Origin: Eledone cirrhosa
Taxonomy: Eukaryota
Length of the DNA: 64,000 bases
Direction: 5' to 3'
Assembly (NCBI GenBank): GCA_964016885.1
Contig: OZ024753.1
Coordinates: 7,378,001-7,442,000, forward strand
This document shows positions 37,936 through 43,486 of the stretch, in pieces (positions within the stretch are counted from its first letter, which is position 1; each line of letters begins with the position of its first letter). The notes under the pieces were generated by a model that was not told the DNA's origin, searched no databases, and saw only the letters and a program-made list of their open reading frames with translations. The position numbers and the translations under genes were made by a program.

Positions 37936-38477
37936 TAAAATAAAGTTAAATAAAAGTGAAATGATTAAAATTTAGCTTCGTTTATTACTGCTATATATAT
38001 TTCAGTGACAGCCATCTCTGGCTGTGACCTCTTCAGGCAGTTTGAATTAGTATGGTATAGACAAGTACATATGTTGTTTAGGTGTATGATATTGTCAATA
38101 CTCTGATATGCCCAGTTCCTTGCTGGGTTGTTAATTCACTGGGGAACTGGAGTCATATATGACTCCAGTTCCCCAGTGAATTAACAACCCAGCAAGGAAC
38201 TGGGCATATCAGAGTATTGACAATATCATACACCTAAACAACATATGTACTTGTCTATACCATACTAATTCAAACTGCCTGAAGAGGTCACAGCCAAAGA
38301 TGGCTGTCACTGAAATATATATAGCAGTAATAAACGAAGCTAAATTTTAAACATTTGACTTTTTATATTACTTTATTTTACACTACTCCGGAGTAACCAA
38401 ACCAACCTGCGCACTTCGTCGAGTGCTCCAGCCTGCATACTGAGGTGTTGGTATACAACCAACATAAACTCAAAATC
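37936..38477 (+). mobile_element. F7 fold-back element (about 220-bp arms plus 95-bp tail); hammerheads at 37987-38041(-) and 38274-38328(+)
   Basis: actgc-CTGAAGA-ggtcacagcca/tggctgtcact-GAAA-tatata-TA-gcagt; centre gagtcatatatgactc. Confidence 0.85.
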
Positions 38478-38768
38478 TATATATATATATATATATATAT
38501 ATATATATATATATATATATATATATATATATATATATTTGAAAAAAAGGAAAAGAATGACTTCACTTGTAGTTCTAAATAATTTGAAATCAAATTATTT
38601 TGAACTACAAGTGAAGTCATTCTTTTCCTTTTTTTTTCGAATATACCTAACTGTACCAAGGATTTCACACATGTTCCAATATATATATATATATATATAT
38701 ATATATATATTGTGAAAAGTTAGGACCCGACGGCTGAGGCTCTTGTTGTTTCGACTGTAAATTCCATA

Positions 38769-38926
38769 CAGGGGTAAAATTCCGATATAATGAATACCAT
38801 TATAACGAAATTTTTTTCAATCCCTGGCCACATGCTCAATGTGTTAGGTCGATCTCGTTATAAGAATTTTTCATAACAACCAATGTTTTTATGCCCCGTG
38901 ACTTTCGTTATAACGGAATTTCACCG
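38769..38926. mobile_element. pogo/Tigger-like MITE with TA TSD
   Basis: TIRs ggtaaaattccgatataatgaa and ttcgttataacggaatttcaccg. Confidence 0.7.
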
Positions 38927-39185
38927 TAAATGCATATAAGAGACATACATTGAATGCGTTTATACAAATGAAAGTATGTATGTATAATATTATGTTTGTT
39001 GCTAAAATGAAAACACCAAAGAATATTAACGAATGTAGAAGTGAAATAAACATATCTGGAGAGAGAGAGAGAGGGGAGGGAGAGAGAAATTAAGACAAGG
39101 AGAATTATGTGGAGGGAGTATTAAAGAGAAAGAATTATAGAGTGACGTATGAAGTAAGGGATATATTTATATATATTGTAATAAT

Positions 39186-39370
39186 TGTTTCTACTTTAGG
39201 CACAAGGCCAGCAATTACCCAGTGCATTACTGGTACTTTATTTTATCGACCCCGTAAGGATGAAAGGCAAAGTCAACCTCGGCCGGATTTGAACTCAGAT
39301 CGTAAAGGGACGTAACTATGCTTGAAAGCATGGCGTCCGACCCTCTACCGATACTCCCAATCCACCGCCC
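39186..39370 (-). mobile_element. S1 SINE, full length
   Basis: A and B boxes; imperfect TSD tttatatata(tt)gtaataat. Confidence 0.9.
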
Positions 39371-40333
39371 TTTATATATAGTAATAATATAATATATATA
39401 TATATATATATATATATATATATAGAGAGAGAGAGAGAGAGAGAGAGAGAGAGCGAGTGACATGTGAAGAAAGGGAGATATGTGGAGTGAGAGAGAGAGA
39501 GAGAGAGAAAGAGAGGGTGAGGAAGGGAGAGAGAGGGAGACGGAAAATGGGTCTGTTTTCTCCATTTATTGATATTTTTCAATCATAATTTATATTCCTC
39601 GTTTAGATTCAAGTGCAAAATGAATTGGCTCCCCCTCCCTATATTTTGTTTTTTTCAGACGGAATGTCTCTAATAGTGTCCATAAACATGCTTACACTCC
39701 TAGCAAGAAATACCATCAAATACCATTATTCTCTCGTTTATTTCATTCGGTTTGATTTCTCTCGTCTTGTTATATTTTTCCTTCAGTTACTGATTTCTTT
39801 ATTTTATTTTATTGAAATATTTCGTTTATTATATCTTGCCATTTCTTTTCAGTGATTTACTAACAAGAAAATTATTATTTTTATTTTCATACTTGTTTGA
39901 TCATGTGAACGCAAGTATTCAACAAAGCTCCCTGCTTAGGAGGTGATTTTTTTTTGTTTTGTTTTTTTTTGTTTTTATCCTAGGACCACCGAATGGGAAC
40001 AAACAAACAAAATATAAGCCGTTTTGCTTCTTTTTCCCGACAAAAGGCGTTCGAATTATTAAAACAACCATCCTACTTTTTGCGGTGGAGGAAGGCTTCG
40101 GCTGTCATTGCTATTGACTCTTCCTGTTTGAAATAGGCACGTCTTTGGTAACGGAAGGTGATGTTAAGTACAATATTGGTACCAGTTTCAATATGGAATA
40201 AGTCAAACGAATGATTTTGCTAACAACAAGACAAATTTTACAAAACGGTGAAGCAGGCAGGTGTCAAACACGACCAATTATAGCCAGAATATGAAAACCC
40301 AGGAAATAAACAAGGTGAAAATCTCAACATAAA

Positions 40334-40603
40334 TAATCTGAGCTTTTCGAATATTAATAATTGTTTCTACTTTAGGCACAAGGCCAGCAATTACCCAGTT
40401 CATTACTGGTACTTTATTGTATCGACCCCGTAAGGATGAAAGGCAAAGTCAACCTCGGCGGGATTTTCGAATATTAATAATAACATTCGATTCGTTTGCA
40501 ATTTTGCAAACAAGCCACAATTTTATAGCCATGTTTTTCTTGCTCTTGTGTTGCAAAATTGCAAACGAATCGAATGTTAGTAATATTCGAAAAACTCAGA
40601 TTA
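40334..40603. mobile_element. Small inverted-repeat element interrupted by a 5'-truncated S1 SINE (40362-40463, minus, 18-bp TSD)
   Basis: taatctgag...ctcagatta ends; TSD ttttcgaatattaataat at 40344 and 40464. Confidence 0.75.
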
Positions 40604-41005
40604 CACATATATATATATATATACAGTACAGCGGGAACTTGAACTGTATAAAAATGTACACATTGTATATCATGGATCGATTAAATTCCGTTATATATAG
40701 CTAATAGTTTCGGCTAGTTCCCTATCTCTCTCTCTCTCTCACACACACACACACACGCACACAGACGCACACACACACACACACACACACACACACATAT
40801 GTATATATATATATATATATATAGAGAGAGAGAGAGAGAGAGAGAGAGAGAGATAGATAGATAGATAGATAGATAGATAGATATTCTTATTTTATGACAA
40901 ATGGCAGTCCCTTTGAAACGTAGCAAGATGTCAGTGATTGATAGTCTATAAACGAAACCTTAACTACGTAGAATTGGAATTTGGTGAAAATCGTCAAAAC
41001 ATAGA

Positions 41006-41092
41006 TCTCGAATATAAGTCGACCCCCTTCGACCAACGATTTTTTTTTTTTTTTTTGTCATATATTCCTCGACTTATATTCGAGTATATACG
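41006..41092. mobile_element. Tc1/pogo-like MITE remnant
   Basis: ctcgaatataagtcga / tcgacttatattcgagtatatacg. Confidence 0.6.
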
Positions 41093-41834
41093 ATAATACT
41101 TTATCTTGTTTCGTCTGATATATTTCAATTCTTCAAATTTATGGAATACTGATTCCTCACTCTCTTGACCAAAATCCTGCAATACGTAAATTAAATATGG
41201 GAGCATAGGTTAATTTCAAAAATAAAAATTAATGTTTGGAACACAGTAAGAGATGTACATACAAGCAAACAAGTGTAAGTCTGTTGCGCAGTGATTGTAA
41301 CGTGAATAACTTCTAATATTTCACTATACCTATCATACAAATTGTAACACGAAGCAGTTATATCTAGAAGAAACTTTTAAAGAGAGAGAGAGAGAGAGAG
41401 AGAGAGAGAGAGAGAGAGAGAGAGAGAGAGAGATAGAGAGAGAGAGAGAGAGAGAGAGAGAGAGAGAGAGAGAGAGAGAGAAAACTTTTTAAAGAAACAT
41501 TTGGTAAAAAAAGAAAATTTTCAAAAAGCCAGATATGTTGAAATTTCTGTGATCTTTTCGTCTTTGAAACCGAATTTTTACACCGAAAAAAGAAAGAAAA
41601 AAAGAAACAGCTCCATTAAAATTGAATCGCTGCATGAATACACAAACGTACACATAGAATCACACACACACACACACACACTTTGTCTCTCTCTCTCTCT
41701 CTCTCTCTAACGCTGTCTCTTAAGTTTTCTTTCTCTTAGCCCTTTTTTCACTGTCGTCTTTATTCCTTTTATTGGTGTATATATTCATATGTATGAATAT
41801 ATACACTCACCCTCTGAAGGAAACCTGCACAGTG

Positions 41835-42365
41835 CACTCTACATGTAAATGGAGTGCCACTGAAGCAGGTGGGGGAATTTCAAGTATCTCGGGGCCGTAT
41901 TCACAAAACAAGGAAGGTAGTAAGCTGAAATAAGTGCAAGTATGTCAGGAACGCCATCTTCAGCGTTCAGTAATCAAAAGCGGAGAAAAACCTAATAAGG
42001 TATCTACAATTCGGTTTATGGTCATAAATCTTGGGTAACGACCGAAAGAATACGATCGTGAATACAAGCGGCAGTAATGGGTTCCTCTGAAGGGTTTTTG
42101 GAGCAACGTTACACGATAGAGGGCGCACTTGGCAGATCAGAAAGTTGATCTAGGTAGAGACGCTACCTCTCAGAATTGAGAGATCACAGTTCAGATGTTA
42201 TGGGTTTATGGTTAGAATATCTCAGGAAAGAATTTCTTGACAGATCATACGAGCAAACCCAGCCGGGCAGGAAACTCGGGGGTAGCCACCGGACAAGATG
42301 GTTGGATAACATCCAGGAGCTCCGCTGGTCTCGCTTGGGGACCCAGGCGTCACGATTGGAGACGG
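41835..42365 (+). mobile_element. Degenerate RTE-clade LINE 3' fragment
   Basis: LHVNGVPLKQV../[47 protein letters not shown]. Confidence 0.85.
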
Positions 42366-42559
42366 TTGCTTCTCACACATACACACCCACACACACACAT
42401 ACATATATATATAAATATATATATATATATACACACACACACACACACACATATATATATATACACGCACACACATATATATATATACACACACACACAC
42501 ACACATATATATATACATACACACACACACATATATATATATGTATATACATTATATAT

Positions 42560-42696
42560 AACGAAGGAGGTGTGGTAGGGAACCAGATGGACCATAACGC
42601 ACCAGAGTACTCAATACTTATGGTAGTAGAGTGGGTAATAGGAACAAGTATAACCCCGACGGCAGAGCTCAAGCCGTTACGACGGCTATTTCTCGA
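42560..42696 (-). mobile_element. F2 element, unfolded copy
   Basis: Homology to 2298-2430. Confidence 0.75.
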
Positions 42697-42946
42697 CTAT
42701 ATATTCTCCTATTACATTATATATATATATATATATTATATACATATATATATATATATATATATATATATATATATATATATATATATATATATATATA
42801 TATATATATATATATATATATATATATATATATATATATATATATATATATATATATATATATATATATATATATATATATATATATATATATGTATATA
42901 TATATATATATATATGTATATATATATATATATATATATATATATA

Positions 42947-43486
42947 TAAAATAAAGTAATATAAAAAGTCAAATGTTTAAAATTTAGCTTCGTTTAATAC
43001 TGCTATATATATTTCGGTGACAGCCATCTTTGGCTATGACCTCTTCAGGCAGTCCGAATTAGTGTGGTATTGACAAGTACACATGTTGTTGAGGTGTTTA
43101 ACTTTGTCAATACTCTGATATGCCCAGTTCCTGGTTAGGTTGTTATTTCTCTGAGGAACTGGAATCATGATTCCAGTTCCTCAGTGAAATAAGAACCCAA
43201 CAAGGAACTGGGCATATCAGAGTATTGACGAAGTTATACACCTCAACAACATATGTACTTGTCTATACCATACTAATTCGGACTGCCTGAAGAGGTCACA
43301 GCCAAAGATGGCTGTCAACGAAATATATATAGCAGTAATAAACGAAGCTAAATTTTAAACATTTGACTTTTTATATTACTTTATTTTACACTACTCCGGA
43401 GTAACCAAACCAACCTGCGCACCTCGTCGAGTGCTCCAGACTGCATACTGAGGTGTTGGTATACAACCAACATATACTCAAAATCT
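42947..43486 (+). mobile_element. F7 fold-back element, second copy; hammerheads at 42999-43053(-) and 43282-43336(+)
   Basis: Same architecture as 37936-38477; centre gaatcatgattc. Confidence 0.85.

What the first reader, a model, noticed from the sequence alone, without database searches (positions are those of the whole stretch)
37936..43486. Inverted arm appears to be re-synthesised at each insertion at a fixed fold point
Seen: the two F7 copies fold at the same position and their left arms end at the same position, yet each copy's arms share copy-specific variants. Copy 1 has gtttgaatt/aattcaaac, gggg/cccc and gagtc/gactc; copy 2 has gtccgaatt/aattcggac, gagg/cctc and gaatc/gattc. F2 behaves the same (acgagtagg at 2380, aaagtatg at 3543, accagtaag near 18790, each mirrored in its own second arm). 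Inference: a single-arm RNA is reverse transcribed and the cDNA self-primes by fold-back, making a palindrome anew each time. Arm-to-arm gene conversion is the alternative.
Basis: partly seen in the sequence, partly recalled or inferred. Interest (0 to 1): 0.75.

Follow-up and report, generated by a model that had tools for sequence, protein, structure and literature searches.

The report
Penelope retroelement copied from both ends
The two palindromes are the short ends of a known kind of jumping gene (a Penelope-like element), and the many genomic copies indicate that the mirror arm is rebuilt at each insertion, likely because both cut ends of the host DNA copy the same RNA and are then joined, rather than because one copy folds back on itself.

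Summary
Both palindromes are the pLTR (about 223 bp, with a hammerhead-like motif) plus a 96-bp tail of a Hydra-clade Penelope-like retroelement with at least 1,821 copies, inserted in (TA)n. The mirrored variants are subfamily markers, not copy-specific. The fold is a hot spot, not fixed: 15 of 60 two-armed copies join there, and the 60 show 53 different junctions, so the arm is remade at each insertion. The hot spot is likely a capped transcript start (extra G in two families). Simple fold-back cannot be the general route: the tail-less arm is the longer one in 16 of 60 copies, stands alone in 5 of 30, and is paired with tail only in 4 of 30. Best reading: both nicked DNA ends prime reverse transcription at two fixed sites of one source RNA, and the cDNAs join head to head; fold-back may explain a minority. 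Inverted pLTRs, tails and two-strand priming in vitro are published; this scan noted similar layouts elsewhere in this genome. No RNA data were tested.

The parts
37936..38158 (-). Copy 1, inverted tail-less pLTR arm (element positions 3865-4087; positions count on a real near-full-length copy, L032), young subfamily
38157..38380 (+). Copy 1, direct pLTR arm; the arms overlap by 2 bases (AT) at 38157-38158, both starting at the inferred transcript start
38274..38328 (+). Minimal type-I hammerhead-like motif (CUGAAGA core, long stem II, GAAA, palindromic TA stem III, 5-bp stem I); predicted cut before 38324; mirrored in the inverted arm
   Evidence: read from the sequence; fold (z -2.9); no Rfam hit at gathering score in two related copies; activity untested
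38351..38375 (+). Patch in copy 1 right arm with the letters of copy 2 and not of its own left arm or subfamily
38381..38476 (+). Copy 1 tail: the element's own 5' sequence just ahead of the ORF, present on one side only
   Evidence: L032 unit start matches the tail; L019 reads from tail into ORF
42947..43168 (-). Copy 2, inverted tail-less pLTR arm (3867-4087), older subfamily
43167..43388 (+). Copy 2, direct pLTR arm with hammerhead-like motif at 43282-43336; 2-base overlap at 43167-43168
43389..43484 (+). Copy 2 tail
37850..37935 (.). (TA)n target flanking copy 1 (also 38477-38518; copy 2 lies between 42700-42946 and 43485-43560 TA runs)
2298..2460 (.). F2 copy (second Penelope-like family, same layout: tailed arm, tail-less inverted arm, TA flanks)
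3459..3648 (.). F2 copy with filler bases at the junction
18787..18972 (.). F2 copy
19014..19335 (.). F2 copy whose arms are separated by about 140 unrelated bases
42561..42698 (-). One-armed F2 copy directly upstream of copy 2's TA run

Best explanation
Both palindromes are truncated insertions of a Hydra-clade Penelope-like retroelement, and the inverted arm is likely made by twin priming: both nicked strands of the (TA)n target would each prime reverse transcription of the same source RNA. One cDNA would start at the end of the tail (4183) and the other 96 bases inside (4087); each runs towards the RNA's 5' end, stops there or earlier, and the two cDNA 3' ends would be joined head to head through a few shared bases or filler. 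The hot spot (3865) is likely the capped start of a transcript from the pLTR promoter, and its first four bases (AUAU) are self-complementary, which gives the common perfect palindrome. Shown: element identity, fixed outer ends, junction diversity, arm-length asymmetry in both directions, solo and tail-only arms, shared haplotypes, extra G. Inferred: transcription start, cap, nicking, priming, one RNA for both arms, the joining step.
For: [quoted passage not shown] Fixed starts: inverted arms end at 4087 in 46 of 60 (57 within 4080-4092), tailed arms at 4178-4184 in 85 of 86. Independent arms: tail-less arm longer by over 10 bases in 16 of 60, shorter in 15; of 30 tail-less arms, 5 have no partner within the locus and 4 have a partner made of tail only. 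One source: 331 of 361 minor alleles shared; long-with-short pairs 3 against 20.9 expected; private variants are shared by both arms even where the tail-less arm is longer (10 in 8,180 bases). Capped start: base before 3865 is G 31, A 14, T 55 in the first 100 of 544 arms (counted by hand) against G 18, A 29 at other ends (Fisher p 0.004); F2 G 48, A 8 before its start, which sits in a T(C/T)AGTC initiator-like word; all 42 G-start arms inspected are true ends, and both tailed and tail-less arms carry the G. In vitro, a Poseidon protein nicks and extends both strands and starts at two sites that bracket the tail (PMC11167929).
Against: 15 of 45 junctions outside the hot spot are symmetric within 10 bases against 1.8 expected; independent random stops do not give this, so it needs a shared RNA end, coupled enzymes or fold-back in a subset, and several of these junctions sit on small hairpins that fit fold-back. 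Short snap-back inserts occur at junctions (L147, L108, L029). In about half of the inspected G-starts the G could come from the partner arm (10 of 20 F2, 9 of 22 F7, read by eye). A fold-back followed by a cut at 4087 on either end can be made to fit the asymmetric copies. Solo arms could be later deletions. No RNA, cap or enzyme data were obtained.
Confidence: 0.68

Rival explanations
1. Fold-back (first reader; self-priming also proposed in PMC3846280): one cDNA primed at the tail end folds back at its 3' end and copies itself; the copy stops or is cut at 4087.
For: Excess of symmetric junctions (15 of 45 against 1.8); junctions on local hairpins and mini-palindromes, including hammerhead stem II; shared haplotypes; 201 perfect palindromes at an 8-base palindrome.
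Against: Needs the tail-less arm to lie inside the tailed arm: broken in 16 of 60 and by tail-only partners and solo tail-less arms; tail-less arms that reach the G-start while the partner stops short; symmetric copies share fewer private variants (2 in 4,418 bases) than left-longer copies (10 in 8,180), the opposite of what copying first-strand errors predicts, though counts are small. Survives only with an added cut that can fall on either end, or for a minority of copies.
Confidence: 0.2
2. Both ends prime, but on two different RNA molecules drawn from the cell's pool.
For: A few copies have arm patches from different subfamilies (copy 1; L127, L083, L068); in the youngest subfamily arms of one copy are no closer than arms of two copies (0.33% against 0.37%).
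Against: Long-with-short pairs are nearly absent (3 against 20.9), whole-arm subfamily mismatches were not seen in 61 copies, private variants are shared. Sister transcripts of one locus cannot be told from one molecule and are counted with the best explanation.
Confidence: 0.06
3. A two-armed master (palindromic RNA or a foldback DNA transposon) is copied as a unit, and arm-to-arm gene conversion keeps the arms alike.
For: 201 copies share one exact junction; a conversion-like patch lies in copy 1.
Against: 53 junction types in 60 copies; the same perfect junction recurs in different subfamilies; arms of older copies have drifted apart by about 3%, so they are not being homogenised; ends are asymmetric and lead into a reverse-transcriptase ORF.
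Confidence: 0.04

Closest known systems
Hydra clade of C-terminal EN+ Penelope-like elements (PMC8557442; section 11 and passages read)
   Same: RWK, DKT, CxCx5C, CxxC and CxH motifs, no CCHH, (TA)n target, hammerhead-like motif, inverted 5'-truncated copy, tail at one end only
   Different: Unit about 4.1 kb against 'generally under 3 kb'; tail 96 bp against the 30-40 bp given for PLEs; that paper leaves the origin of inverted pLTRs open and suggests endonuclease resolution
Poseidon_Ac in vitro (PMC11167929; main text and start of methods read; supplements not read)
   Same: Two reverse-transcription start sites bracketing the tail, AT-rich target, both strands nicked and extended, hammerhead cut not needed
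   Different: Different clade; the main text does not discuss inverted pLTRs, twin priming or a cap; start sites there lie inside the ORF, here just ahead of it
Adineta vaga Penelope elements (PMC3846280; passages and Discussion read)
   Same: About 200-bp pLTRs, head-to-head inverted pLTR, palindromes at the junction, optional tail
   Different: Interpreted there as self-priming on an antisense template; the copy statistics here favour two primings on sense, capped RNA
LINE-1 twin priming and 5' extra G (PMC11702581; passages read)
   Same: Second DNA end primes a second reverse transcription, giving an inversion joined by microhomology; extra G marks a capped full-length end
   Different: In L1 the second priming is at variable internal sites and the two pieces barely overlap; here both starts are fixed and both cDNAs copy the same stretch, which gives a palindrome
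Minimal hammerheads of PLE pLTRs (PMC4209133; passages read)
   Same: Long helix II, short helix I, palindromic helix III
   Different: Activity untested here; the predicted cut site is the start of only 1 of 86 tailed arms (L108)

Membership tests
Penelope-like elements (EN+) | Single ORF with reverse transcriptase and GIY-YIG endonuclease | tested here: met
   L032 ORF (one frameshift in that copy) with YRDD and C-terminal GIY-YIG; Pfam PF01541 E 5.8e-4, below its cut-off; no Pfam hit for the RT part at E 0.1, RT motifs read by eye
Penelope-like elements (EN+) | pLTRs in partial tandem or inverted arrangement with a tail at one end | tested here: met
Penelope-like elements (EN+) | Hammerhead motif in the pLTR | tested here: inconclusive
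   Core and stems present by inspection and folding; no Rfam hit; my descriptor scan missed it through a scripting flaw; cleavage not testable
Hydra clade | RWK and DKT motifs; CxCx5C linker; CxxC and CxH around the conserved E and N; no CCHH | tested here: met
   translation against the definition; F2's parent shows RWR, DKT, YRDD (L229)
Hydra clade | Insertion into (TA)n | tested here: met
   (1,391 exact tail-less ends joined to TA repeats)
Hydra clade | Generally shorter than 3 kb | tested here: not met
   unit about 4.1 kb with a 3' untranslated part of about 1.1 kb ahead of the pLTR; the paper gives this as a tendency, not a definition
Hydra clade | Placement in the RT phylogeny | not tested
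   no reference Hydra proteins were fetched
Neptune clade | CCHH motif inside the GIY-YIG core | tested here: not met
   one cysteine only between the two half-motifs; my first label was withdrawn
MITE or foldback DNA transposon | Fixed symmetric terminal inverted repeats moved as a unit | tested here: not met
   asymmetric ends, 53 junctions in 60 copies, continuity with an RT ORF
Non-LTR retrozymes | Tandem monomers whose ends are set by ribozyme cleavage | tested here: not met
   no tandem pLTR arrays among the 89 position-ordered loci; ends at the predicted cut in 1 of 86
LINE-1-type twin priming (works like) | Second target end primes a second cDNA | not testable with these tools
   inferred from arm asymmetry, solo and tail-only arms

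The most novel reading that the evidence does not exclude
Penelope-like elements integrate by a programmed double reverse transcription: an enzyme dimer copies one capped RNA twice, from two fixed start sites onto the two ends of a TA-repeat break, and the cDNAs are joined head to head. This one rule would explain the inverted pLTR, the one-sided tail, solo pLTRs and junction palindromes, and would make palindrome writing the normal outcome of insertion.
Probability: 0.5. Interest if true: 0.7.

Novelty: new member of a known kind. Interest (0 to 1): 0.47.

Why it matters
How Penelope-like elements make their inverted ends is stated as unresolved in the papers read (PMC8557442, PMC11167929), and the one explicit proposal found is self-priming on antisense RNA (PMC3846280). 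Young, high-copy families in this genome record thousands of finished insertions and give specific predictions (two fixed starts, one capped RNA, either arm longer) that an existing in vitro system can test. These enzymes are sisters of telomerase, and a retroelement that writes on both ends of a break is relevant to RNA-templated genome writing. The element itself is an ordinary member of a described clade.

Tried and rejected
RNA evidence: no RNA holder listed for the element's 3' end; this is no evidence either way, and no reads were laid. Rfam: nothing at gathering score in L002 and L003; the 150 shown of 400 E-value matches in the window were microRNA models, mostly on simple repeats. The repeat finder was swamped by microsatellites. 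Neptune label: dropped. The idea that left arms carry their own outer-end variants: wrong, the odd letters are in copy 1's right arm only. A ribozyme cut as cause of the hot spot: a GAAA-stem-UUC stretch ends at 3864, but I found no CUGANGA core that pairs with it by eye, and an extra G points to a cap; not excluded. Hammerhead descriptor scan missed the F7 motif because of lazy matching and is not used as a count. A tree of arms was replaced by distances because young arms are often identical (36 ties in 61). Target-site duplications could not be judged in TA runs. Literature searches for twin priming in Penelope elements returned no paper that proposes it; subscription journals and supplements were not searched or read.
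Full report
1. Observation. The window is part of a 3.0-Gb, microsatellite-rich genome. Two palindromes lie at 37936-38476 and 42947-43484, each between TA runs. The alignment of the four arms confirms the three mirrored variant pairs and the common outer end of the inverted arms. Three details of the finding do not hold. The variants are subfamily alleles carried by dozens of sampled copies. The arms start at element position 3865 in copy 1 and 3867 in copy 2. 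Copy 1's right arm carries a 25-base patch identical to copy 2 and unlike its own left arm.

2. What it is. Many genomic copies extend upstream of the fold into a 3' untranslated region and an ORF. The near-full-length copy L032 has a unit of about 4.1 kb: tail, ORF with RWK, DKT and YRDD, a C-terminal GIY-YIG domain with CxCx5C, CxxC and CxH but no CCHH, then the pLTR and the tail again. These are the features given for the Hydra clade (PMC8557442, section read). Pfam gives GIY-YIG weakly (E 5.8e-4) and nothing for the RT part. The pLTR holds a minimal hammerhead-like motif (window 38274-38328), assigned by inspection and folding, in the form described for PLEs (PMC4209133, passages); Rfam does not detect it. 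The pLTR-tail junction has 1,821 exact matches in the genome. F2 is a second family of the same kind, with 18,714 exact matches of its junction and a parent ORF with RWR, DKT and YRDD.

3. Sample. To avoid bias I took copies in chromosome order: 94 of the first 100 listed matches of the junction, which make 89 insertions; 3 were dropped (L101 runs off the locus, L118 and L121 are compound), leaving 86. A second set is the first 30 tail-less ends joined to TA. The haplotype tests also use the best-hit sets, which are biased towards the two window subfamilies (157 loci, 104 two-armed, one duplicated pair among them).

4. Is the arm remade each time? Yes, by inference from these counts. Of 86 tailed arms, 29 start at the hot spot (3860-3874), 30 downstream and 27 upstream. 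Sixty have an inverted arm with its outer end in view (a lower bound). Only 15 of the 60 have both arms at the hot spot; the 60 show 53 different junctions, the commonest 8 times. Genome-wide the perfect hot-spot junction occurs 201 times and read-through arms 824 times. Arms of one copy differ by 0.97% against 2.6-3.3% between copies; left arms do not group with left arms. In the youngest subfamily there is no excess (0.33% against 0.37%), and the own arm is strictly nearest in 10 of 61, tied in 36, beaten in 15. Older copies' arms have drifted about 3% apart, which argues against steady arm-to-arm conversion. In F2, 18 of 21 two-armed copies mirror the subfamily motif exactly (read by eye).

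5. What fixes the ends? Outer ends: 4087 in 46 of 60 inverted arms, 4178-4184 in 85 of 86 tailed arms. This matches the two reverse-transcription start sites that bracket the tail in vitro (PMC11167929). Inner hot spot: 544 arms begin exactly at A3865 after a base other than the element's C; in the first 100 that base is T 55, G 31, A 14 (hand count), against G 18, A 29 at clean ends elsewhere (p 0.004). F2 repeats this at its own boundary: G 48, A 8, C 44 (C is templated in part of the family) in the first 100 of 6,308 (hand count), and its boundary lies in an initiator-like word (label recalled). All 20 F2 and 22 F7 G-start arms inspected are true ends. In 10 of 20 and 9 of 22 the G could be the partner arm's next base; in the rest it cannot or the neighbour is host DNA or filler. 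An extra G marks capped full-length ends in L1 (PMC11702581, passage). I infer that the hot spot is the capped start of a pLTR transcript; a CCAAT word lies about 50 bases upstream. The predicted hammerhead cut is the start of 1 of 86 arms.

6. Fold-back or twin priming? Fold-back from a cDNA primed at the tail requires the tail-less arm to lie within the tailed arm. The tail-less arm is longer by more than 10 bases in 16 of 60 copies, shorter in 15, equal in 29; in the best-hit set the excess reaches 2.3 kb (L038). Of 30 tail-less arms, 17 have an overlapping tailed partner, 5 have no partner within the locus, 4 have a partner made of tail only (so no palindrome at all), 2 run off the locus and 2 are unclear. 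Tail-less arms reach the G-start themselves, in several cases while the partner stops short. Two insertions carry a G-start on both arms with unrelated filler between (L161, L269). These point to two primings. Both arms still come from one source: long-with-short pairs are 3 against 20.9 expected, and private variants are shared in left-longer copies (10 in 8,180 bases).

7. Against this reading. Outside the hot spot 15 of 45 junctions are symmetric within 10 bases, against 1.8 under shuffling. This needs a shared RNA end, coupled enzymes, or fold-back in a subset; several such junctions fit a 2-3-base primer on a small hairpin, while others (L014, L139) have no usable loop or microhomology. 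Short snap-back inserts are present at some junctions. A fold-back with a later cut at 4087 on either end can be made to fit, at the price of an extra step. A few copies have mosaic arms (copy 1, L127, L083, L068), which may be later conversion or template switching and are unexplained. No transcript, cap or enzyme was observed.

8. Known and new. Inverted pLTRs, junction palindromes and one-sided tails are published features of PLEs. Two-strand priming and two start sites were shown in vitro, without discussion of inverted arms in the main text (supplements not read and they may bear on this). Five searches of the open library found no paper proposing twin priming for PLE inversions. Earlier notes of this scan report the same layout, and copying from both ends of a break, for other families in this genome; I had written my reading down before that look-up, and one note led me to re-check the clade. 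Verdict: a new family of a known clade, with a testable answer to an open mechanistic question; interest 0.47.

Noticed in passing
window 38351-38375: Copy 1's right arm carries a patch identical to copy 2, 5 kb away; none of the other 39 best-scoring genomic copies matches it exactly. Local gene conversion, template switch or assembly mixing.
   Followed up: partly
window 37697-37829 and 38539-38671 (related piece at 46678-46766): A 94-bp near-perfect palindrome with a short one-sided extension flanks copy 1 on both sides (96% identical); a further small family or an old duplication.
   Followed up: no
window 3135-3389, 25948-26213, 37316-37422, 57752-57887: Another palindromic family with a CUGACGA...GAAA-TATATA hammerhead-like motif (37377-37420) and TA flanks; same layout as F7.
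   Followed up: no
window 44-369, 6404-6968, 45070-45396; 7830-8065 and 58696-58931: Further repeat families with hammerhead-like cores at 204-166 (-), 6806-6844 (+) and 7872-7914 (+).
   Followed up: no
window 40464-40593, 50537-50630, 45593-46303, 57938-58605, 50230-51261: More inverted-repeat elements, some with spacers of several hundred bases.
   Followed up: no
window 4177-4366, 11248-12587, 31171-31563, 39181-39368, 40355-40466: A dispersed family of about 190 bp, amplified as a 127-bp tandem array at 11464-12351.
   Followed up: no
L108 (G000:C1:66441911-66444943): Both arms begin exactly at the predicted hammerhead cut site, the only such copy in 86; possibly copied from a self-cleaved RNA.
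   Followed up: partly
L216/L217 (G000:C1:5838320-5841628), L223: Two-armed F2 copies of different subfamilies sit back to back in one TA run, showing repeated targeting of the same microsatellite.
   Followed up: no
L039 (ORF at 2711) and L036 (ORF at 3262): Fragments of other Penelope-like ORFs lie within a few kb of F7 copies.
   Followed up: no
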